DNA from: Thermoanaerobaculia bacterium
Lineage (GTDB): Bacteria; Acidobacteriota; Thermoanaerobaculia; UBA5066; Gp7-AA6
DNA: 64,000 nucleotides
Direction of reading: 5' to 3'
Assembly (NCBI GenBank): GCA_036505535.1
Contig: DASXTI010000062.1
Location: 39,249-103,248 of the forward strand
Under the pieces are notes generated by a model. That model did not search any database. It saw only the letters and a list, made by a program, of their open reading frames with translations, and had not been told where the DNA came from. The translations under genes and the position numbers were made by a program. Below, one piece after another: positions 5,013 through 47,841 of this stretch. The first letter of the stretch is position 1, and every line of letters starts with the position of its first letter.

Positions 5013-5015
5013 TCC

Positions 5016-5050
5016 CAATCGTCAATCGCCAATCGCCAATCGCCAATTCC
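5016..5050. repeat. Five tandem heptamers CAATCGT-CAATCGC-CAATCGC-CAATCGC-CAATTCC, ending 3 nt before the next start codon
   Basis: Read directly from the sequence. It fills the DUF4126 / NYN-gene spacer. Same heptad as the right arm of the 46121-46155 element. Confidence 0.9.
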
Positions 5051-5053
5051 CCC

Positions 5054-5509
5054 ATGCCTTATTTCCTCGACGGCAACAACCTGATCGGCATCGTGCGGCG
5101 GACCTCTCGCCCCACGGAGGAGGATCGCTCCGCGCTGATCGCCGAGATCGCGGAGCGCCTGCGGAGGACGCGGGCGAAAGCGACCATTTTCTTCGACGGC
5201 CCGGCCAGGCAACAGGCGACCTCGCTCGGCAGCCTCACGGTTCGGGCACCGTCCTCGGGGACCGCCGACGACGCGATTGTGCGGGATGTCGAACGGGCGC
5301 GTGCTCCCCGCGAGGCCGTCGTCGTGACCGCGGATAGGGGGCTGGCGCGCCGCGTTCGGGACGCCGGAGGGCGAGTCTGGTCGCCTGCCCAATTCTTCGA
5401 GCGCTTCGGAGGGGAGCATGGGCCTCGGGCGGAGCGCCAGGACGTCGGACGCGTGGACGTCGAAGCCTGGATGCGGTACTTCGAGGATGAGAGAAATCGG
5501 GGTGGCTAG
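5054..5509 (+). CDS. NYN/PIN-like domain protein (YacP/Rae1-like predicted RNase)
   Basis: Internal ATG of ORF 4172..5509. MPYFLDGNNLIG...ATIFFDG...GTADDAIV...VVVTADRGL matches the YacP-like NYN pattern (DG.N...FDG...ADD.I...V.T.D). Confidence 0.7.
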   Translation: MPYFLDGNNLIGIVRRTSRPTEEDRSALIAEIAERLRRTRAKATIFFDGPARQQATSLGSLTVRAPSSGTADDAIVRDVERARAPREAVVVTADRGLARRVRDAGGRVWSPAQFFERFGGEHGPRAERQDVGRVDVEAWMRYFEDERNRGG

Positions 5510-5662: not shown

Positions 5663-6077
5663 GGCTCCGAGCGGGCCACGCGATCGCTCCGAGAAATCGG
5701 AGAGGAAAGTCCGAACTCCACACGGGCGGCATGCCGGGTAATCCCCGGTCGCGGCGACGCGAAGGAAAGTGCCACAGAGAAGAGACCGCCTTCCGGAAGG
5801 ACGGCAAGGGTGAAACGGTGCGGTAAGAGCGCACCGCTCCGCCGGCAACGGCGGGGGCACGGTAAACCCCATGCGGAGCAAGGCCAAATAGGGGGGCAGC
5901 GGGCGCCCGTCCCGCCTCACATTCCGTGAGCTGCCTCCGGGTCGGCTGCTCGAGCCCGAGGGCGACCTCGGGACCAGAGGAATGATCGCGACCCCGGCCA
6001 GGGGGAATGGGGGACCGCAAGGTCCGCCGCCAACCTGGCGGGGCACAGAATTCGGCTTACAGGCCCGCTCGGGGCTC
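5663..6077 (+). ncRNA. rnpB: RNase P RNA, bacterial type A
   Basis: Universal conserved blocks: GAGGAAAGTCCGAACTCCACA; GGTGAAACGGTGCGGTAAGAGCGCACC; CACGGTAAACCCCATGCGGAGCAAGGCCAAATAGGGG; ACAGAATTCGGCTTACAGGCCCGCTCGG. The P1 stem pairs 5667-5677 with 6062-6072, followed by a T-run at 6078-6083. Ends are approximate (+/- 5 nt). Confidence 0.95.
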
Positions 6078-6090
6078 TTTTTTGAGTTGT

Positions 6091-6164
6091 TAGTCTGTAG
6101 TCGGTAGGTAGTCTGTAGTCGAGAACCTTGTTACCACCGACTACCGGCTACTAACTACCGACTA
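6091..6164. repeat. Imperfect inverted repeat built of heptads (TAGTCTG TAGTCGG .. TAGTCTG TAGTCGA / CCGACTA CCGGCTA CTAACTA CCGACTA)
   Basis: Seen in sequence, between the rnpB T-run and the ldcA ATG (6168). Lower GC than the flanks. Confidence 0.85.
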
Positions 6165-6167
6165 TTC

Positions 6168-7079
6168 ATGACTCCTTTCACTCGTCCTCCCCGCCTGAAG
6201 CCCGGAGCCACGATCGGCATCGCGGCCATTTCCGGCCCTGTCGACGAGAAGCCTCTCGCTTCGGGCATTCGTGCGCTCGAAGGCCGGGGGTACACGATCG
6301 TGCCGGCGTCCAACATCGGAGAACGCGCCGGGTTTTTCGCGGGATCCGACGAGCGTCGCGCCGCCGGTTACCGTGAGCTCCTTCGCGATCCTCGCGTCGA
6401 CGCCATCTTCTTCGCCCGCGGCGGCTATGGCGCCTCCCGAATCCTGCCGCTGTTGTCTGCCGACGAGATCCGCTCGCGGCCGCGAATCCATCTGGGTGGT
6501 TCGGATCTGACCGTCCTTTTCGCCTTCCTGGCCACCCACGCCCGGCTCGTCTCCTTTTACGGCCCGATGGTCGCCGTCGGGCTGGCGGAGGAGGGGCTCG
6601 ATTGGGAAGGCGTCCTCGCCGGCGAGAGCCCTGCCCTGCATTGCGTCGCCGAGGAGGACGTTCTCGCCGGTGGAGTCGGCCAGGGACCTCTGACGGGAGG
6701 GTGCCTGTCGCTCGCGGCCTCCCTGGCCGGCACCTCCGAGGCGATGGACGGAAGAGGGAGGGTCTTTTTCTGGGAGGACGTGGGCGAAGAGCCTTACCGC
6801 CTCGATCGAATGTTGACCCAACTGGAGCGGTCGGGTACATTCGATCAACTGCAAGCCATGATCATCGGCTCGATTTCGCCCGGCGCGCGCGGCGGTGGGG
6901 AGTCCCAGCCATCCGTCGATGCCTGGCTGCGGGACCGCTTCGCGGGCTCCCCCTTTCCGGTCGTGCGGGGCTTTCCCGCCGGTCACCTCCGCCGTTGCCG
7001 GACTCTGCCGCTCGGCATGCCGGTCCTTGTCGATGCGGAGCATGGGATCGTCAAATTCGCCGGCCCGGCCGTCGCCTGA
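6168..7079 (+). CDS. ldcA: LD-carboxypeptidase (peptidase S66, muramoyltetrapeptide carboxypeptidase)
   Basis: 303-aa ORF. S66 pattern: IGIAAISGP..., nucleophile region HLGGSDLTVL, C-terminal GFPAGH. Confidence 0.8.
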   Translation: MTPFTRPPRLKPGATIGIAAISGPVDEKPLASGIRALEGRGYTIVPASNIGERAGFFAGSDERRAAGYRELLRDPRVDAIFFARGGYGASRILPLLSADEIRSRPRIHLGGSDLTVLFAFLATHARLVSFYGPMVAVGLAEEGLDWEGVLAGESPALHCVAEEDVLAGGVGQGPLTGGCLSLAASLAGTSEAMDGRGRVFFWEDVGEEPYRLDRMLTQLERSGTFDQLQAMIIGSISPGARGGGESQPSVDAWLRDRFAGSPFPVVRGFPAGHLRRCRTLPLGMPVLVDAEHGIVKFAGPAVA

Positions 7080-9970: not shown

Positions 9971-10960
9971 GTGAGCTTGCGAGTCATGGTTACCGGCGGT
10001 ACCGGTTTCGTGGGAACCCACGTGGTAAACGGGCTGCTACGTCGCGGCCACGCCGTCGCCGTCCTCGCGCGCGATCCGGGAAGGACACGCAACCGGTACA
10101 ACCGTTTAGTCGAGACGGTCGCCGGAAACGTGCTGGACCCCGACTCACTCGCGTGGGCCGCGACCGGAAGGGACTCGATCGTCCATATCGTAGGGATCAT
10201 CAACGAGAAGGAGGGCCAGACATTCGATCGCCTGCACCGGGTGGCCACCGAGAGCGTCGTCGCCGCGGCGAAAGGCGCCGGCGCGCTCCGGTACCTGCAC
10301 ATGAGCGCGATGGGCAGCGCCGAAGATGCGCCTTCCGAGTACGGCCGTACGAAGGCGGCGGGAGAGCGGGTCGTTCGCGCGTCCGGCCTCGATTGGACGA
10401 TCTTTCGTCCGTCCATCATCTTCGGGCCGGGGGACGGCTTCGTTTCGCTGCTCGCCACGATCGTGCGCCGCAATCCCGGTTTCATTCCGGTCATCGGTCC
10501 GGGCACGACGAAGTTTCAGCCGGTCTCCGTCTACGACGTCGCGCGTGTCTTCGCCGATGCCCTGGAGAAGCCGGCGACGATCGGGCGCACCTTCGAAGTC
10601 GGAGGACCCGAAGTCTTCACGATGAACGAGATCTACCGGGAAATCGCGGCGGCCGTCGGCAAGACGCGCAAGCCTCTGCTCCACCTCCCGCTCTGGTACG
10701 GCCGCATCCTCGCGCGCATCTTCGAGTGGCTCGCGCGAAGGGGGGTCTTCGCGGATCCCCCGCTGACCCGGGATCAGTTGAAGAGCTTGATGCGCGACAA
10801 TGTCGCGGATGTTTCCGAGACCGTGGCGGTCTTCGGAGAAGAGTGGCGGCGCTTTGGACCCGGAATCCGCGACTACCTCTACAACGGGCGCCATGATCCC
10901 CGCCAGGGCACGGGGGAGGAGATCGAGCTCGAGCCGAGGAAGGTGGTGCGGATACGGTAG
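9971..10960 (+). CDS. NAD(P)-binding SDR-family protein (complex I NDUFA9-like / NmrA-like epimerase family)
   Basis: Rossmann motif VTGGTGFVGTHVV. 329-aa ORF. The start may be the ATG at 9986 rather than the GTG at 9971. Confidence 0.75.
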   Translation: MSLRVMVTGGTGFVGTHVVNGLLRRGHAVAVLARDPGRTRNRYNRLVETVAGNVLDPDSLAWAATGRDSIVHIVGIINEKEGQTFDRLHRVATESVVAAAKGAGALRYLHMSAMGSAEDAPSEYGRTKAAGERVVRASGLDWTIFRPSIIFGPGDGFVSLLATIVRRNPGFIPVIGPGTTKFQPVSVYDVARVFADALEKPATIGRTFEVGGPEVFTMNEIYREIAAAVGKTRKPLLHLPLWYGRILARIFEWLARRGVFADPPLTRDQLKSLMRDNVADVSETVAVFGEEWRRFGPGIRDYLYNGRHDPRQGTGEEIELEPRKVVRIR

Positions 10961-10981
10961 GGGCGGGGCTTGCCCCCGCCC
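10960..10981. terminator. GC-rich hairpin between convergent genes (GGGGCGGGGC-TT-GCCCCCGCCC, one bulge)
   Basis: Seen in sequence immediately after the stop at 10960. No T-run, so terminator function is inferred. Confidence 0.4.
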
Positions 10982-11003
10982 GTCAAGCGTCGACAGTCAA
11001 CCG

Positions 11004-13040
11004 TCAATTCTTCTTCAGCCTTATCGTCCCCGAAGACGTCCGCACGACGACCTTCTCCCCGCCGCCGTTCAAGGAGAGGGTCGCCCGCTGATGACCCGAG
11101 TTCTTGGAAATCGCGAGGTTGGCGAAGTCCGACCGGATCGCCGACTCACTTTCGTCCGCGCCGGTAACGATGAGCTCCACATCCGCCTTACAGTCGGCGG
11201 GGAGAACCAGCGAGACGTCCCCCCCCGAATTGTGGATCGTGACGCCGCCCTTGATCTCGCGCGATGTTACGCCGATGCGAATGTCGCCGCCGGCCGTAAC
11301 GGCGTGGACGCTTCCGCCTACATGAGGCGCGATGATGTCGCCGCCGGCGGTCTTCGCGTCCAAGCTTCCACCCACTCGCTCGATACGGAGGTCGCCTCCC
11401 GCCGTGTCCAAGAGAGCCGACCCGGAGACGCCGTCGGCGCGAATGTCGCCGGCCATCGTGATGGCCTTCAGATCGCCGGTGATCGCTCCGACGACGATGT
11501 CGCCGCCGAAGGACTTCAGGTCGGCGCCCGCGCCCACGCTTCCTACTCGGATCTCTCCGGAATGCGTCAGGATCCTCACGCGCCCCGACACGTTGCCGAC
11601 GCGGTAGTTTCCGCCGCTGGAAGTGGACAAGAAGTCGCCTGAGACCTCCCCTCGAACGACCTCCCCGTCGAAGACGGGCGGGGCCGGGGCCGGCATGATC
11701 AGGGGAGCCCCAGGCACACGAGCGACCGGGGGAGCGGGCGGGGCCGGGGCCACCGGCGCCGTGGGGGCCGTCGGTGGCATACGGATCACCACCCTGGGGT
11801 GAGGGACCCGAACTTCAACGCGCGGAATCGTCACCACGAAGGATCGGCGGCCAGAGATCAGCGGCTTGGCATCGGCTTCCTTCGTTCCCGCCGCGAGCAG
11901 CAGAACCGTGCCGTTCAGAGTCTCGAGCCGGATCTGGGCTCCCCCCCTTCCGATCGAGCCGGCGTAGTCCTGGCGCGGGTCGTCGATCCGGATGCGGCCA
12001 AGCTCCTTCTCGACCTCCCGCATGCCCTTCTCGGCATCGCGCATGCCCTCTTCGATCTGAGCCCCGACCTCCTTCATGGACTCGGACAGCTCCTGCTCGA
12101 GCTCGCGCAAGTCGACGATCGTCGTCTCCCCCTCCCCGTCTTGCACGACGACACGCTTGCCGTGATCCGCCTTCGGAGGATTCGGCGCCTTGGAAGGCTT
12201 CGGCGTCTTCGGCTCCTTGCGGATGGGCTCTTCGAGGGGCGTTTCCGGGATGCGCGGGGGGAGCGGGAAGGTCGAAGCGATCGTTCCGTTCATCGTCGAC
12301 GCGGTGAGATCGAACTTCGCATCCTTGGGCAGGGTCAGCGTCACCGAACCGTTGACCGACTGCAGCTCCACCGCGGTGCCCGGGAGCAACGCGGAAGCCG
12401 CGGCGTCGATCTTTCCGTTGACTGTCTGGGCCTCGACCGCCTTGCGGACGCCGCGGGCTTCGATGGAACCATTGACGCTCTCGAGCTCGAGGTCTCCGTC
12501 GCAATCCTTCACGCGCACGTCGCCGTTGACGGTCTTCAGTTCTGCCGTGACGCCGGGCGGCACCACGATGTCGTAACGCACCACGATCCGGCAATTGGGG
12601 CAGCCCGATCCGTGGCGGCCCTCGCGCCCGCGGGAGTTCCGCATGCCGGGCCAGCGTGTCTCCAGCGACCAACCGTCGTCGTCGCGGTTGCCCGCGACTT
12701 TCGTCTTCTCCAGGATCTCTTCGGCCCTCTTCTGCGTCGGCGCGAAGACTGTGACCGTGACGACGGCCGCGAACTCCTTTCCCGGGGCGGCGACGATGTC
12801 GCCCGAGATGTTCTCGATCTGGACCGACTGCCCGGGCGTCATCGGGCCTCGGAATCGGTCGACCCGGTTGGCCGAGGGCTGCTCGGCCTTCGCGACGCCG
12901 ACGAGCATCAGCAGCAGCCCAATCGCGAGAAGAATCCAGACGGCGAGTCGGCCGGCGCGAGCGGAGGCTCCCTCCGGCGCACTGGCGGATTTCGCAAGCT
13001 TGAAGGTATTCATCATCAGGGAGAGACGTTCTGTGGTCAT
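11004..13040 (-). CDS. Large DUF4097 (putative adhesin / beta-helix) protein with two DUF4097-like halves
   Basis: ATG at 13040 (MTTERLSL...) preceded by GGAGG. N-terminal hydrophobic helix. Repeated GD[IV]xV / NG[ST]I strands in both halves and a Pro-rich central linker. The upstream extension of ORF 11004..13379 overlaps the anti-sigma gene and was discarded. Confidence 0.75.
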   Translation of the reverse strand: MTTERLSLMMNTFKLAKSASAPEGASARAGRLAVWILLAIGLLLMLVGVAKAEQPSANRVDRFRGPMTPGQSVQIENISGDIVAAPGKEFAAVVTVTVFAPTQKRAEEILEKTKVAGNRDDDGWSLETRWPGMRNSRGREGRHGSGCPNCRIVVRYDIVVPPGVTAELKTVNGDVRVKDCDGDLELESVNGSIEARGVRKAVEAQTVNGKIDAAASALLPGTAVELQSVNGSVTLTLPKDAKFDLTASTMNGTIASTFPLPPRIPETPLEEPIRKEPKTPKPSKAPNPPKADHGKRVVVQDGEGETTIVDLRELEQELSESMKEVGAQIEEGMRDAEKGMREVEKELGRIRIDDPRQDYAGSIGRGGAQIRLETLNGTVLLLAAGTKEADAKPLISGRRSFVVTIPRVEVRVPHPRVVIRMPPTAPTAPVAPAPPAPPVARVPGAPLIMPAPAPPVFDGEVVRGEVSGDFLSTSSGGNYRVGNVSGRVRILTHSGEIRVGSVGAGADLKSFGGDIVVGAITGDLKAITMAGDIRADGVSGSALLDTAGGDLRIERVGGSLDAKTAGGDIIAPHVGGSVHAVTAGGDIRIGVTSREIKGGVTIHNSGGDVSLVLPADCKADVELIVTGADESESAIRSDFANLAISKNSGHQRATLSLNGGGEKVVVRTSSGTIRLKKN

Positions 13041-23986: not shown

Positions 23987-25135
23987 GTGAACCTTCTCAT
24001 CTCGGCCGGCGAGGCGTCGGGCGACCTCCACGGTGCCCGCCTCCTGCAGGCTCTGAAGGCGGCCCGGCCGACGCTCTCCGCATTCGGCATGGGAGGCACG
24101 AGACTCGAGAGCGCAGGGCTCGAGCGGATCATCAAGTCGGAGGCGCTGTCGGTCGTCGGAATATCCGAAGTCCTCGAGAAGCTGCCCGCTCTCCTTCGTG
24201 CGCTGCACGCGTTGAAAGCGGCGGCCCGGAGTCGGCGGCCCGAAGCGGCGGTCCTCGTCGACTTTCCCGATTTTCACGGGCTTCTGGCGCGGAGGCTCCG
24301 GCGGGAGGGGGTTCCGTTGATCTATTACGTGAGCCCGCAGGTCTGGGCCTGGCGGCGCTGGAGGGCGCGTGTCATCGCGGAGCGCGCGCGGCGGATCATC
24401 ACGCTGTTTCCTTTCGAAGCCGAGATCTACAGAGAGCTCGGCGCCGACGCGGTCTGTGCCGGACATCCTCTCGTCGAGGACGTCCGGGAAGGATTGACCC
24501 TGCCGTCGCCGTTGCCGATCAAAACGCGGCGGCGTCTGGTCTTGCTTCCCGGCAGCCGCGGCGCCGAGTTGCACCGTCATTGGGAAACGATCGCCTCGGC
24601 CGCCTCGCGCCTCGCCGAGCGTTTCGACCTGGAGGTCGTCGCGATCCGGGCCACGGCGTTGCCTGAATCGCTCTTCGCCGGCGCCGCCGAGCGGGGTATC
24701 CGGGTCGTCGCGACGGGTGCGCATTCGATTCTGGCCTCCGCCGACCTTGCGTTCGTCGCTTCCGGATCGGCGACGCTCGAGGCGGCGCTCTGCGGAGCCC
24801 CGATGGTCGTCGTCTACCGGACTTCGGCCTTCAGCCACGCGATCGCAAAGTCTCTGGTCAGACTCCGCTGGATCTCGCTCGTCAACATCGTGGCGGGAGA
24901 GGAAATCGTGCCGGAGCTCATCCAGGAGAAGCTGACCGTGGAGAACCTGGAGCGGGCCGGCGAGGATCTGCTGCGTTCTCCGGGTCGCGCGGAGGCCATG
25001 AAGAGAGGCCTCTCACGGGTGGCTCGGGAGCTCGGCCCCCCTGGCGCCAGCGCTCGGGCCGCCGAGTACGTTCTTTCGGCCCTCGACCCCTCCGCCTCCC
25101 GCCTCCCGCCGGCCGCCTCCCGACTCGCCTTATGA
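23987..25135 (+). CDS. lpxB: Lipid-A-disaccharide synthase
   Basis: N-terminal LLISAGEASGDLHGARLL and overall LpxB-like length. GTG start. Confidence 0.9.
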   Translation: MNLLISAGEASGDLHGARLLQALKAARPTLSAFGMGGTRLESAGLERIIKSEALSVVGISEVLEKLPALLRALHALKAAARSRRPEAAVLVDFPDFHGLLARRLRREGVPLIYYVSPQVWAWRRWRARVIAERARRIITLFPFEAEIYRELGADAVCAGHPLVEDVREGLTLPSPLPIKTRRRLVLLPGSRGAELHRHWETIASAASRLAERFDLEVVAIRATALPESLFAGAAERGIRVVATGAHSILASADLAFVASGSATLEAALCGAPMVVVYRTSAFSHAIAKSLVRLRWISLVNIVAGEEIVPELIQEKLTVENLERAGEDLLRSPGRAEAMKRGLSRVARELGPPGASARAAEYVLSALDPSASRLPPAASRLAL

Positions 25136-35378: not shown

Positions 35379-35446
35379 TCGTGAATCGTGAGCCATCAGA
35401 CGGCTCGTCGAGCCCGCTCCGGACTCATGACTCACGACTCATGACC
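35379..35446. repeat. Heptad inverted element (GTGAATC GTGAGCC ATCAGAC / GACTCAT GACTCAC GACTCAT GACC) flanking a small GC hairpin GGCTC-GTC-GAGCC
   Basis: Seen in sequence. It starts right after the priA TAG and lies upstream of accA (GTG 35479). Confidence 0.8.
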
Positions 35447-45348: not shown

Positions 45349-45789
45349 ATGATTGGAATTCTCCTCGTCACACACGGCAGACTCGCCGAAGAGCTCCGCG
45401 CAGCCGCCCTCACCATCCAGCCCGGCTTGGAGCGCGTCGTCGCCCTGGCGCTCGAGTGGAGCGAGACGGGTGAGGATGCGCGCGAGAAAATTCGCAGGGC
45501 TCTCGAGCAGGCCGACGAGGGAGATGGCGTCGTCATTCTGACCGACATGTTCGGAGGCACACCGACCAACCTCACGTTGCCGTTCCTCCGAAAGGAGCGG
45601 GTGGAGATCGTGACGGGGGTCAATCTCCCGATGATCCTCAAGTGTGCGTCCCTCCAGAGGAGTGGCCGCCCTGTCACCGAAGTCGCCCACGTGGCCAAGG
45701 ATCGCGGCCAGAGGTCGATCTACGTGGCGTCGGATCTGCTCGCCGAAGAAGGGGCGCCGGAGGTGGTGTCGGAGAAACAGGAATCGTGA
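45349..45789 (+). CDS. PTS EIIA component, mannose/fructose family (ManX-like, stand-alone)
   Basis: MIGILLVTHGRLAEEL with the conserved His, and DMFGGTP. Confidence 0.85.
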   Translation: MIGILLVTHGRLAEELRAAALTIQPGLERVVALALEWSETGEDAREKIRRALEQADEGDGVVILTDMFGGTPTNLTLPFLRKERVEIVTGVNLPMILKCASLQRSGRPVTEVAHVAKDRGQRSIYVASDLLAEEGAPEVVSEKQES

Positions 45790-46055
45790 TCGAGCGCGAG
45801 CTCGCCATTCGAAACCGACTCGGCCTCCACGCCCGCGCGGCCGCGAAGTTCGTTCAGACGGCCAGCCGCTTCCGGTCGGAGGTCAAAATCCGTAAGAACG
45901 GGGAAGAGGTGGACGGTAAGAGCATTCTCGGCATTCTTCTGCTCGCCGCCTCGCAGGGAACTCGGATCACGCTCGCCGTATCGGGCCCGGATGAAGCCGC
46001 CGCGTTCGCGGCGGTCGAGGAACTGATCGCCCGCAGCTTCGACGAGGAAGAGTAG
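45786..46055 (+). CDS. ptsH: Phosphocarrier protein HPr/NPr
   Basis: GTG at 45786 within ORF 45642..46055. GLHARAAA (His-15 region) and GKSILGIL (Ser-46 region). Confidence 0.9.
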   Translation: MIERELAIRNRLGLHARAAAKFVQTASRFRSEVKIRKNGEEVDGKSILGILLLAASQGTRITLAVSGPDEAAAFAAVEELIARSFDEEE

Positions 46056-46060
46056 GAGGA

Positions 46061-46155
46061 ATTGACGATTGAAGATTGGCGATTGATGATTGGGTGCGGC
46101 CGCCTCGCCTCTTTCCATCTTTCAATCGGCAATCATCAATCGTCAATCTCCAATG
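46061..46155. repeat. 5 + 5 inverted heptads: ATTGACG ATTGAAG ATTGGCG ATTGATG ATTGGGT ... TTCAATC GGCAATC ATCAATC GTCAATC TCCAATG
   Basis: Seen in sequence. It fills the ptsH-ptsI spacer, and the last heptad contains the ptsI ATG (46153). Confidence 0.9.
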
Positions 46156-47841
46156 CTCCAGGGCCTCTCGGTCTCGCCAGGCGTCGCCGTCGGCCGAGCC
46201 GTCATCATTCGGTTCGGAGGGCTCCCGGCGTTTCGCCGAGCGGTTTCCGCCGACGAGCTCGACAAAGAGGAGCGCCGGCTGCGCCGGGCGGCCGCGCGGG
46301 CGGCCGAGGATCTCGAGCGGCACTCGCGCGAAGCCCACGGCGACATCGGAACCGAGCTCGCCGCGATTCTGGAGGCCCACAGCTTGATCGCCACCGACGA
46401 GACCTATCTCGGCGCGATCGTGTCGTGCATGCGGCGAGACCGGGTCAACGCCGAGTGGGCATTGGCAGAGGTAACACGCGAACTCGGCGAGCGCCTGGCC
46501 GCGGCCGATTCCGCGGCCATGCGGGAGCGCGAGGCCGACATCTCCGATGTGGCCCGCGAGATCGCGCGGCATCTCTCGGGCGGCGCACGTCCGCTGCCGG
46601 GCGAGCTTCCTCGCGGCTCGATTCTGGTGGCCGACGAGCTATCCCCGGTCGATGCGGCGCGGTTGGATCCCCGGCGCGTGCGAGCCCTTGCGCTGGAGCG
46701 CGGCGGCCCGACGTCGCACGCATCGATCATTGCGCGCTCCTTCGGGCTTCCCGCGGTCGTCGGCATCGCGGGACTCTGCGAGGCGGTTTCGCCGGAGCGT
46801 CCGATCATCGTGGATGGCAATCGGGGCGTCGTGGAGCTGGATCCCTCCAAGGAGCAAATTCGCCAGAGCTTTTCTCGCGCGCGCGAGGAGAAGGAACACA
46901 GTCGCCGCCTGCAGGGCCTTGCGGCACGGGTCGCAACGACGAAAGACGGGGTCCGAATCGCCGTGCGCGCCAATCTCGAGCTGCCCGAGGAGATTCCGGC
47001 TCTGGATCGCTCGCGTGCCGAGGGGGTGGGACTCTTCCGCTCCGAATTCCTGTATCTTCGGGCTCTGCCGCGCTCGCCCGGAATCGAGGAGCAGCGCGAG
47101 GCGTACGAGACCCTCTTGACCGCCGCGGCGCCGCATCCGGTGGTCGTGCGAACCTACGACCTCGGAGGGGAGAAGGGGATCGGCCCGGCGCCCGGTGAGA
47201 ACCCCGCACTCGGGCTGCGGGGACTGCGGTACTGTCTGGCGCACCCGGAGCTCTTCGACGAGCAGCTGACCGCCCTTTGCCTGGCCTCGCGTCGCGGCGA
47301 CCTGCGGATTCTGCTCCCGATGGTGACGTCGCTCTCGGAGCTCGCAGCGGCTCGGCAGGCTCTCGAGCGCGCCGTCCGGCGCACGGGAATCACGCAGACG
47401 CCCAGGCTCGGCGTGATGATCGAGATTCCCTCCGCGGCCCTGCTGGCCGAACGTCTCGCGGCTGCCGCCGACTTCTTCTCGATCGGCACCAACGATCTGG
47501 CGCAATACGGCTTAGCCGTCGACCGCTCCAATCCCGACGTGTCAGCGCTCTATCGCCCGCTCCATCCGGCGATTCTCCGGATGATAAAATTTGTCGTGGA
47601 CGCGGGACGCAACTTCGAGCGGCCGGTGGCCGTGTGCGGCGAAATGGCAGCGGATCCTCTCGGAGCCGCGGTTCTGGTGGGCCTCGGTATCACGGATCTC
47701 TCCGTGACGCCCGTAGCTATACCGGGCATCAAAGAGAATCTCTCATCGATCGACTCATCGCGCGTCCGCGTTCTGGCGGAGCGGGCGCTCGAAGCCGCGG
47801 AGGCCGCCGAGGTTGAGCGCATCTTTGGAGGAGAGTTGTGA
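46153..47841 (+). CDS. ptsI: Phosphoenolpyruvate--protein phosphotransferase (PTS Enzyme I)
   Basis: ATG at 46153 within ORF 46090..47841. MLQGLSVSPGVAVGRA, active-site GGPTSHASIIARS, and FFSIGTNDLAQY. Confidence 0.95.
   Translation: MLQGLSVSPGVAVGRAVIIRFGGLPAFRRAVSADELDKEERRLRRAAARAAEDLERHSREAHGDIGTELAAILEAHSLIATDETYLGAIVSCMRRDRVNAEWALAEVTRELGERLAAADSAAMREREADISDVAREIARHLSGGARPLPGELPRGSILVADELSPVDAARLDPRRVRALALERGGPTSHASIIARSFGLPAVVGIAGLCEAVSPERPIIVDGNRGVVELDPSKEQIRQSFSRAREEKEHSRRLQGLAARVATTKDGVRIAVRANLELPEEIPALDRSRAEGVGLFRSEFLYLRALPRSPGIEEQREAYETLLTAAAPHPVVVRTYDLGGEKGIGPAPGENPALGLRGLRYCLAHPELFDEQLTALCLASRRGDLRILLPMVTSLSELAAARQALERAVRRTGITQTPRLGVMIEIPSAALLAERLAAAADFFSIGTNDLAQYGLAVDRSNPDVSALYRPLHPAILRMIKFVVDAGRNFERPVAVCGEMAADPLGAAVLVGLGITDLSVTPVAIPGIKENLSSIDSSRVRVLAERALEAAEAAEVERIFGGEL

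What the first reader, a model, noticed from the sequence alone, without database searches (positions are those of the whole stretch)
46061..46155. Five-plus-five inverted GATTGNN / NNCAATC heptads fill the ptsH-ptsI spacer and include the ptsI start codon
This is the cleanest member of the family. ATTGACG ATTGAAG ATTGGCG ATTGATG ATTGGGT is followed by a 25-nt GC-rich centre and then TTCAATC GGCAATC ATCAATC GTCAATC TCCAATG, the final ATG being the ptsI start. The invariant GATTG/CAATC cores can pair in several registers, so the stem could slip by multiples of 7 nt. Pairing would sequester the ptsI initiation region. An RBS-like GAGGA lies at the 5' edge (46055-46060), far from the ATG unless the hairpin brings them together. 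This is a plausible translational control or coupling device between HPr and EI.
Basis: partly seen in the sequence, partly recalled or inferred. Interest (0 to 1): 0.6.

Follow-up and report, generated by a model that had tools for sequence, protein, structure and literature searches.

The report
Heptamer-repeat hairpin filling ptsH-ptsI spacer
The 97-base gap between two sugar-signalling genes is filled by a strong hairpin made of seven-base repeats, but it is one recent copy of a repeat type that litters this genome and comes and goes between sister species, not a dedicated switch for the downstream gene.

Summary
Between the HPr stop (TAG 46053-46055) and the EI start (ATG 46153) lie five GATTGNN heptads, a GC-rich centre and five to six NNCAATC heptads. 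The last heptad holds the ATG. As RNA the region folds at -62 kcal/mol (z = -5.8).

The interpretation as a ptsI-specific control device is not supported.
- The genome carries 473 heptad arrays and at least 135 inverted pairs with many core sequences. Almost all begin 0-6 nt after a stop codon.
- Of 35 congeneric species, 23 have a plain 14-28 nt ptsH-ptsI spacer. Twelve have heptad hairpins with at least four core types.
- In the two sister families sampled the spacer is about 3 nt (f3) or roughly 17-30 nt (f2), with no heptads.
- The same gain and loss occurs at gyrB-gyrA and fabH-fabD.
- The SD-like GGAGGA edge is a generic feature of these hairpins. It is no commoner where a start codon follows.
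- Register slippage costs at least 11 kcal/mol.
- Stem mismatches show no G·U over A·C bias on the sense strand.

My best reading is a recent member of the known but unexplained heptamer-repeat hairpin class. It is probably tolerated because it folds the stop and start together, so that ribosomes finishing ptsH open the ptsI start. That last step is inferred, not shown.

The parts
45786..46055 (+). ptsH (HPr). GTG start, TAG stop at 46053-46055. The tail DEEE (GAC GAG GAA GAG) is conserved in all congeners.
   Evidence: Pfam PTS-HPr, E = 4e-30. Orthologous tails.
46055..46060 (+). SD-like GGAGGA at the 5' base of the hairpin, overlapping the last base of the stop codon. It is paired with CUCC at 46148-46151 in the minimum-energy fold.
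   Evidence: A purine-rich or SD-like 5' edge is generic to the hairpin family.
46060..46094 (+). 5' (G-rich) arm: five GATTGNN heptads.
46095..46113 (+). GC-rich centre, the apical loop region (TGCGGCCGCCTCGCCTCTT). It weakly resembles the short native spacer of congeners.
   Evidence: Local alignment CGGCCGCC-CGCC, p = 0.04 uncorrected. The effect was not replicated at other loci.
46114..46155 (+). 3' (C-rich) arm: one degenerate heptad (TTTCCATC) plus five NNCAATC heptads. The last one, TCCAATG, contains the ptsI ATG.
   Evidence: SNP 46116 C>A in a sister assembly restores CAATC.
46153..47841 (+). ptsI (Enzyme I), 562 aa. The start is conserved across the genus.
   Evidence: Pfam PEP-utilisers_N, PEP-utilizers and PEP-utilizers_C. 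Orthologues align from residue 1.
46062..46090 (+). Sigma-70-like promoter match TTGACG-17-GATGAT inside the 5' arm. This is a consensus match only.
   Evidence: 9 of 12 positions match, with 0.1 such matches expected in shuffles.

Best explanation
The element is one locus-specific, evolutionarily recent copy of the paired heptamer-repeat hairpins that pervade this Thermoanaerobaculia-like genome. The layout is a G-rich tandem 7-mer array directly after a stop codon, a unique loop, and the complementary C-rich array. In this species it has replaced a short 14-28 nt ptsH-ptsI spacer.

It is not a conserved regulator of ptsI. Its GGAGGA edge, its position flush with the stop codon and its inverted layout are all properties of the family.

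It lies inside the hprK-rapZ-EIIA-ptsH-ptsI gene string, so it is presumably transcribed. It would then fold in a single register into a hairpin of about -48 kcal/mol (core) to -62 kcal/mol (with flanks). The base of that hairpin places the ptsH stop next to the ptsI AUG and buries positions -12..-1.

Inferred step: ptsI has no usable linear SD. It is therefore most likely translated when ribosomes finishing ptsH melt the base of the stem, which is RNA-unfolding-type translational coupling. On this view the hairpin is tolerated as a folded spacer rather than selected as a switch.
For: Family membership:
- The genome has 473 period-7 arrays, and 135 inverted pairs were detected. Of those pairs, 127 have the G-rich arm first.
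- Pairs begin 0-6 nt after stop codons. They are enriched between convergent and co-directional genes and depleted between divergent ones, 6 of 129.
- Loops are locus-specific; only 5 of 69 are repeated.

Not conserved at this locus:
- The ptsH-ptsI spacer is 14-28 nt with no heptads in 23 of 35 congeners.
- It is 66-97 nt with hairpins in 12 congeners. Core types are GATTGNN, GATTKGT, GTGATTC, GGTGACA and one degenerate form.
- In family f3 it is about 3 nt (TAGgacATG in two genomes; read as a GTG start 3 nt after the stop in two more; no HPr found upstream in the fifth).
- In family f2 the start was read by eye as GTG about 17-30 nt after the stop, with one 224-nt exception. None of the 15 outgroup genomes has heptads.

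Same turnover elsewhere:
- gyrB-gyrA has a native spacer of 4 nt, and fabH-fabD has a native TGAATG overlap. Both show the same gain and loss.

Other tests:
- The SD-like edge is generic, not start-linked.
- Folding is in a single register.
- The start region is buried.
- Sense-strand G·U versus A·C appositions are 112 versus 113 in 81 co-directional hairpins, so there is no sign of sense-RNA-specific selection.
- There is no Rfam family match.
- Essential downstream genes (gyrA, fabD) also start flush with such hairpins, so the arrangement is compatible with translation.
- The RNA-unfolding model of coupling is established in the literature (PMC12548453).
Against: - No expression, structure-probing or ribosome data exist. 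Transcription through the hairpin and coupling are both inferred.
- A ribosome stopped at UAG would melt only about 10 bp of a stem of about 30 bp, so it is uncertain that this exposes enough mRNA for initiation.
- Twelve of 35 congeners carry a hairpin in this one spacer, always flush with the ATG. That could reflect selection for something rather than mere tolerance.
- The mechanism that creates such arrays is unknown.
- My pair detector missed this very hairpin because of its variable NN positions. The family statistics are therefore conservative and approximate.
- Gene starts come from my own simple caller.
Confidence: 0.6

Rival explanations
1. One reading: a dedicated translational control or coupling device. 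The hairpin brings the GGAGGA at its 5' base next to the ptsI AUG as a split SD, or sequesters the start region, in order to set EI relative to HPr.
For: - The geometry fits: SD-like GGAGGA directly 5' of the stem and the AUG directly 3' of it.
- All 12 hairpin-bearing congeners have a purine-rich run right after the stop and end flush with the ATG. Short spacers mostly lack such a run.
- A precedent from memory, not checked here, is the phage T4 gene 38 hairpin between SD and AUG.
Against: - Absent from 23 of 35 congeners and from both sister families.
- The SD-like edge is equally frequent at hairpins with no start codon behind them: 53% versus 50%, p = 0.85.
- GGAG is paired with CUCC in the minimum-energy fold.
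- The unpaired probability of the 5' run varies from 0.22 to 0.78 among orthologous hairpins.
- The same elements sit at gyrB-gyrA and fabH-fabD.
- There is no sense-strand G·U bias.
Confidence: 0.12
2. REP-like 3'-end element. The hairpin directly after the ptsH stop protects the upstream mRNA segment from 3' exonucleases or modulates termination. It would thereby raise HPr relative to EI, as REP/BIME elements do in enterobacterial operons.
For: - Genome-wide, the hairpins hug stop codons at 0-6 nt even when the next start is hundreds of bases away.
- They are enriched between convergent genes and rare between divergent ones.
- The same positional rule was reported for Xanthomonas and Nostoc heptamer repeats (PMC4692102).
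Against: - No U-tract follows the stem, so it is not an intrinsic terminator.
- There is no G·U over A·C bias on the sense strand.
- There are no expression data.
- This does not explain why the 3' arm ends flush with start codons.
Confidence: 0.15
3. Internal promoter. GATTGAC heptads create a -35-like TTGACG. With GATGAT 17 nt downstream this could start a ptsI transcript in the loop. The leader would then be only the G-poor CAAUC array, unstructured and SD-independent, as proposed for TAACTGA repeats in Beggiatoaceae.
For: - One sigma-70-like match at 46062-46090, with 0.1 expected.
- C-rich arrays without a partner abut start codons elsewhere, for example 5015-5047 before ATG 5055.
- Heptamer repeats replacing SD sites next to start codons were described in PMC4679880.
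Against: - The -10 match is weak (4 of 6 positions).
- The promoter consensus of this phylum is untested.
- Most heptad cores in the genome contain no TTGAC.
- Solo arrays at gene 5' ends show no strong strand bias: 34 C-rich versus 26 G-rich.
Confidence: 0.05
4. Contingency (phase-variable) repeat. Gain or loss of heptads by slipped-strand mispairing changes hairpin length and switches ptsI expression within populations.
For: - Heptad number differs between species. G028 has one more CAATC unit next to the ATG than G000.
- Indels in 7-nt steps between cyanobacterial strains are reported in PMC4679880.
Against: - The units are not identical because the NN positions vary, which suppresses slippage.
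- Four assemblies of the same population from different runs carry the same 97-nt spacer, with only one SNP.
- Rehm et al. found no association of such repeats with phase-variable gene classes.
Confidence: 0.05

Closest known systems
Paired (convergent) heptamer repeats of Xanthomonas (GGGAATC) and Nostoc (GGGGAYT), Rehm et al. 2015, PMC4692102
   Same: - Tandem 7-nt units, typically 4-6 copies, dispersed and mostly intergenic.
- Many occur as two arrays in convergent orientation that can form a stem-loop.
- The G-rich version lies on the coding strand within 50 bp after a stop codon, and the C-rich version lies before the next ORF.
- They are rare between divergent genes.
- No function is known.
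   Different: - The unit here (GATTGNN) has no G-tract, so the G-quadruplex explanation does not apply.
- This genome uses well over ten unrelated cores rather than one.
- Two positions per unit are free, yet they are complementary between arms in one register.
- The host phylum (Acidobacteriota) and the GC content (66%) differ.
Cyanobacterial STRR heptanucleotide repeats and the TAACTGA direct repeats of marine Beggiatoaceae (MacGregor 2015, PMC4679880)
   Same: - Heptamer arrays lie within a few nucleotides of start codons, overlapping or replacing the SD site.
- Strain-specific gain and loss occurs, with differences in 7-nt steps.
- A translational role has been proposed but is unproven.
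   Different: - Those are almost always direct repeats with no inverted partner (169 direct sets and 1 inverted).
- They have a single core sequence.
- Here the primary association is with the upstream stop codon.
Translational coupling by RNA unfolding (for example phage f1 genes VII/IX and MS2 coat/lysis; review PMC12548453)
   Same: The downstream start is buried in a structure that begins at the end of the upstream ORF. A terminating ribosome would open it.
   Different: - In known cases the structure is conserved and shown to be required.
- Here it is a recent, dispensable repeat insertion.
- The stem is far longer than a ribosome can melt at once.
- Coupling has not been tested.
REP/BIME extragenic palindromes of enterobacteria
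   Same: Dispersed hairpin-forming elements lie in transcribed spacers just after stop codons, inside operons and between convergent genes. They are variable between close relatives.
   Different: - REPs have one conserved sequence of about 35 nt with a GTAG head and are mobilised by RAYT (Y1) transposases.
- The heptad hairpins have many cores, internal 7-nt periodicity and unique loops.
- A separate GTAG-headed GC-rich REP-like family does exist in this genome, alongside Y1_Tnp genes.

Membership tests
Paired heptamer-repeat hairpins (Xanthomonas/Nostoc/STRR-type) | Tandem array of a 7-nt unit, at least 4 copies | tested here: met
   TRF finds period 7, with 4.6 and 3.9 copies. The pattern search gives 9 hits against 0 expected.
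Paired heptamer-repeat hairpins (Xanthomonas/Nostoc/STRR-type) | A second array of the complementary unit in convergent orientation close by, able to form a stem-loop | tested here: met
   Arms lie at 46060-46094 and 46114-46155. Fold energy is -61.8 kcal/mol, z = -5.8.
Paired heptamer-repeat hairpins (Xanthomonas/Nostoc/STRR-type) | G-rich array on the coding strand within 50 bp after a stop codon; rare between divergent genes | tested here: met
   The array starts 5 nt after TAG. Genome-wide, pairs lie 0-6 nt after stops, and only 6 of 129 are between divergent genes. The criterion is taken from PMC4692102.
Paired heptamer-repeat hairpins (Xanthomonas/Nostoc/STRR-type) | Dispersed, multi-copy in the genome | tested here: met
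   473 arrays and 135 pairs in 3.6 Mb.
G-quadruplex-forming GGGNATC repeats (Rehm et al. sub-class) | A G-tract of at least 3 G in each unit, four units giving a G4 | tested here: not met
   The GATTGNN units have isolated G residues only.
Conserved cis-regulatory RNA of ptsI (leader, thermometer or riboswitch type) | Conserved at the orthologous locus in relatives | tested here: not met
   23 of 35 congeners and all 15 genomes sampled from two sister families lack it.
Conserved cis-regulatory RNA of ptsI (leader, thermometer or riboswitch type) | Evidence of selection on RNA pairing (wobble-tolerant, strand-specific) | tested here: not met
   For the family, sense-strand G·U is 112 and A·C is 113. 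This copy is too clean to test alone: 25 Watson-Crick pairs and 2 transversion mismatches.
Conserved cis-regulatory RNA of ptsI (leader, thermometer or riboswitch type) | Match to a curated RNA family | tested here: not met
   Only spurious miRNA-hairpin hits, far below the gathering scores.
Translational coupling by RNA unfolding | The downstream start region is base-paired with sequence at or next to the end of the upstream ORF | tested here: met
   This is an in-silico result only. Unpaired probability is 0.13 for -10..-1 and 0.41 for the AUG. GAGUA (stop region) pairs with UGCUC (start region).
Translational coupling by RNA unfolding | Downstream translation depends on upstream translation | not testable with these tools
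   This needs reporter fusions or ribosome profiling.
Intrinsic terminator | GC-rich stem followed by a U-tract | tested here: not met
   No terminator-like site at the hairpin on either strand. The stem is followed by AUGCUCCAGGG.
MITE / REP (transposed copies of a master element) | Copies share the whole sequence, including the loop, with target-site duplication or a GTAG head | tested here: not met
   Loops are locus-specific; only 5 of 69 recur. Cores are diverse. There is no duplication at the borders.
Phase-variable simple sequence repeat | Identical units and length polymorphism within a population | tested here: inconclusive
   The units differ at the NN positions. Four assemblies of one population have the same length. 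Read-level data were unavailable.

The most novel reading that the evidence does not exclude
The hairpins may be functional folded spacers. [quoted passage not shown] Tight translational coupling, ancestrally a 3-4 nt gap or a TGAATG overlap, would then survive repeated invasion of operon junctions (ptsH-ptsI, gyrB-gyrA, fabH-fabD) by a repeat-generating process with a 7-nt step.
Probability: 0.2. Interest if true: 0.6.

Novelty: new member of a known kind. Interest (0 to 1): 0.3.

Why it matters
As a ptsI regulator it does not hold up, so nothing new follows for PTS biology.

The locus is nevertheless a clean natural experiment. In one genus the same three operon junctions exist both as tight spacers of -1 to 28 nt and as hairpins of 66-103 nt built from different heptads. 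In each case the downstream gene (EI, GyrA, FabD) stays intact and starts flush with the stem, without an SD.

That makes two open questions testable. First, how do bacteria initiate translation at a start codon lying at the base of a hairpin of -50 kcal/mol? Second, what process makes inverted heptamer arrays directly behind stop codons in several phyla?

Tried and rejected
1. Alternative registers. Constrained folds of shifts of one to two heptads either side of the stable register give -28.6 to -36.8 kcal/mol, against -47.8 for the stable register. Ensemble pairs in other registers are about 0. Slippage of the RNA stem is rejected.

2. A conserved small hairpin in the short spacers of relatives that might do the same job. 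The z-scores are about 0 (-2.0 to +2.1). Rejected.

3. The loop as the retained native spacer, with arms added on both sides. The result was suggestive at ptsH-ptsI (p = 0.04 for G000 and p = 0.007 for G028, uncorrected for 12 tests). It was not replicated in 7 tests at gyrB-gyrA and fabH-fabD, all with p > 0.2. Left as unproven.

4. A relay mini-ORF across the hairpin, as noted by an earlier agent at tolQ-tolR. By reading the sequence, no short frame starts near the ptsH stop and ends near the ptsI ATG. The in-frame TTG at 46090 would give a 21-codon extension that relatives lack.

5. Rfam search gave no real match.

6. Population variation:
- Two metagenome pattern scans and one genome-contig pattern scan found nothing.
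- Exact-protein look-up found three contigs of the same population with an identical hairpin.

7. Start-linked SD enrichment: none.

8. Sense-strand G·U bias: none.

Full report
**1. Observation**

- The HPr gene (45786-46055; Pfam PTS-HPr) ends with GAC GAG GAA GAG TAG.
- GGAGGA lies at 46055-46060.
- Five GATTGNN heptads occupy 46060-46094, followed by a GC-rich centre.
- A degenerate heptad (TTTCCATC) is followed by TTTCAATC GGCAATC ATCAATC GTCAATC TCCAATG.
- The final ATG (46153) opens Enzyme I (Pfam PEP-utilisers N, mobile and C domains).

All congeneric orthologues align from residue 1 (MLQGLSVSPG), so this ATG is the true start.

The heptad pattern gives 9 hits in the window against 0.00 expected. 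TRF calls period-7 arrays on both arms. The RNA fold of 46040-46175 is -61.8 kcal/mol, z = -5.8. Upstream lie hprK, rapZ and an EIIA-Man gene, so this is a regulatory PTS gene string.

**2. It is one of hundreds**

I laid the whole genome (3.6 Mb, 66% GC, 258 contigs) in the Python box.
- There are 270 arrays with an exact 5-mer core repeated at least 4 times at period 7. The cores are many, including GATTG, GTAGT, GATTT, AGACG, GGAAC, ACAGT and GTTTC.
- A tolerant detector finds 473 period-7 arrays, against 1-5 for periods 8-9.
- 135 form inverted pairs, and 127 of these have the G-rich arm first.

I built a simple codon-usage gene caller. It calls 3078 genes covering 89.5% of the genome and reproduces the ptsH and ptsI coordinates. 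With it, pairs lie between co-directional genes (81), convergent genes (42) and only rarely divergent genes (6). The G-rich arm starts 0-6 nt after a stop codon even when the next start is hundreds of bases away.

Solo G-rich arrays also follow stop codons on the sense strand (86 versus 34). Loops are locus-specific, with only 5 of 69 recurring. The hairpins are therefore not transposed copies of a master element.

These features match the heptamer repeats of Xanthomonas and Nostoc (Rehm et al. 2015, PMC4692102). The difference is that GATTGNN has no G-tract. Earlier notes of this scan reached the same family assignment. I re-derived the G-rich-first rule, the stop-codon proximity and the gain/loss behaviour independently.

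**3. The orthologous spacer in relatives**

I searched 60 relatives with EI and read the junction in 35 congeners and 15 genomes of two sister families.
- 23 congeners have a 14-28 nt GC-rich spacer without heptads and without a recognisable SD, for example TAAccgggccgggcgcccgccATG.
- 12 congeners have hairpins of 66-97 nt. They are built from GATTGNN (G000, G028), GATTKGT (seven species), GTGATTC (G021), GGTGACA (G012) or a degenerate unit (G015).
- In sister family f3, two genomes read TAGgacATG and TAGgccATG (3 nt). Two more read as a GTG start 3 nt after the stop, by eye. In the fifth no HPr was found upstream.
- In f2 I read the start by eye as a GTG about 17-30 nt after the stop, with one genome at 224 nt. 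No heptads were seen in any outgroup genome.

On a ptsH+ptsI tree the hairpin-bearing species are scattered. One species (G033) looks like a loss that left a heptad remnant (with spacers).

The short spacers have no significant structure (z about 0), whereas the hairpins have z of -3 to -6.

The hairpin is thus a lineage-specific gain, not a conserved device.

Three Logan contigs from other runs of the same population carry the identical 97-nt spacer. The only difference in 3 kb is 46116 C>A, which restores a sixth CAATC core.

**4. The same turnover at other operon junctions**

- gyrB-gyrA is 4 nt in many congeners (TGAgccgATG). It is a 103-nt TAGTCGG hairpin in G000 and a GTCGAGT or TTCGGAT hairpin in others. 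In several it is instead a GC-rich GTAG-headed palindrome.
- fabH-fabD is a TGAATG overlap or 0-28 nt in most congeners. It is a 97-nt GGATTTT hairpin in G000 and a TAGATTT or GTCGACA hairpin elsewhere.

In each case the 3' arm ends 0-6 nt before the start codon of an intact and presumably essential gene.

**5.

(a) Registers. The stable register pairs 5' heptad 1 with the fourth CAATC core, at -47.8 kcal/mol for 46056-46155. The other registers tested, one to two heptads either side, give -28.6 to -36.8 kcal/mol, and the ensemble has about 0 expected pairs in them. The NN positions are complementary in one register only.

(b) Sequestration. Positions -10..-1 have an unpaired probability of 0.13 and the AUG has 0.41. 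With flanks, GAGUA (stop region) pairs with UGCUC (start region), and GGAG pairs with CUCC.

(c) SD at the 5' edge. SD-like 4-mers occur at the 5' edge of 51% of hairpin edges, against 26% of ordinary gene ends (p = 3e-11). They are not more frequent when a start codon abuts the 3' arm (50%) than when it is far away or absent (53%; p = 0.85). The GGAGGA is therefore a family trait. The genome does use SD sites, with a peak at -12..-9. By a 4-mer criterion only about 32% of called genes have one.

(d) RNA-level selection. In 81 co-directional hairpins, transition-type mismatches on the sense strand are G·U 112 versus A·C 113. There is no sign that pairing is maintained specifically in the sense transcript.

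(e) Other checks. No Rfam family matches. There is no terminator-like U-tract. One weak promoter-like match, TTGACG-17-GATGAT, lies inside the 5' arm.

**6. Most likely mechanism**

Shown:
- The element is a young, clean copy of a dispersed repeat class: 25 Watson-Crick pairs and 2 mismatches.
- It is dispensable in the genus.
- It is compatible with intact downstream genes.

Inferred:
- It is transcribed within the operon and folds.
- ptsI has no linear SD, either here or in the short-spacer congeners. In sister family f3 the SD is the GAGGAAGAG at the end of ptsH, 7-10 nt from the ATG. EI synthesis in this clade therefore probably depends on ribosomes arriving from ptsH.
- With the hairpin present, the terminating ribosome would melt the stem base and free the AUG held next to it. 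This is the RNA-unfolding model of coupling (PMC12548453).

I rate this step at roughly 40-45%. The family assignment and the verdict 'not a dedicated regulator' I rate at over 85%.

Rivals are a split SD, a REP-like mRNA stabiliser, an internal promoter and phase variation. They are listed with their evidence in the rival explanations.

**7. Novelty and verdict**

This is a new member of a known but unexplained kind. Its regulatory reading is only supported in the weak sense that the start region is buried.

The added value lies in four results:
- the three-junction comparison across one genus;
- the negative SD test;
- the negative register test;
- the negative G·U test.

**8. Limits**

- The pattern scans of public contigs found nothing.
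- The gene calls and the array and pair detectors are my own approximations. The pair detector missed the ptsH-ptsI hairpin itself.
- The taxonomic label (Thermoanaerobaculia, Acidobacteriota) comes from earlier notes. I did not verify it.

Noticed in passing
window 5015-5047 (ATG at 5055): A solo C-rich array, CCAATCG x4.7, with no inverted partner. It ends 7 nt before a start codon, and no SD lies between them.
   Followed up: partly
window 6085-6165 (ATG at 6168): A second heptad hairpin with a different core (TAGTCNG / CNGACTA). It ends 2 nt before a start codon and is preceded by a terminator-like GC stem with a T-run at about 6062-6084.
   Followed up: no
window 10958-10985, then 10980-11007: A GTAG-headed GC-rich palindrome, GTAGGGGCGGGGCTTGCCCCCGCCC. 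This is a second, REP-like repeat family with about 22 strand-hits in the genome. It also fills gyrB-gyrA spacers in several congeners. Here it is followed directly by a CCGTCAA heptad array. The genome holds two Y1_Tnp (RAYT/IS200-type) genes above the cut-off.
   Followed up: partly
window 25092-25126 (ATG at 25133) and 35422-35445: Further period-7 arrays, CCGCCTC (anti-SD-like) and GACTCAT, lie just upstream of candidate start codons.
   Followed up: no
window 46116: This is the only difference in 3 kb between the window and a contig from run SRR11743025. C>A turns the degenerate heptad CCATC into the consensus CAATC. That is either homogenisation among units or the ancestral state.
   Followed up: partly
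L010 (G033) ptsH-ptsI spacer; L092 (G020) fabH-fabD spacer: These look like intermediate states. One is a 22-nt spacer ending in ttcacacacc, which looks like the remnant of a lost GTGATT-type hairpin. The other is a 44-nt spacer with only the G-rich array (GATTTCG x4) and no C-rich partner.
   Followed up: no
genome-wide (G000): The GATTKGT / ATCACMA heptads resemble the extended SD and the 16S 3' tail (GGUGAUC / GAUCACC). This may be coincidence, because most other cores show no such likeness. The comparison is from memory of the E. coli 16S 3' end and was not checked against this genome's rRNA.
   Followed up: no
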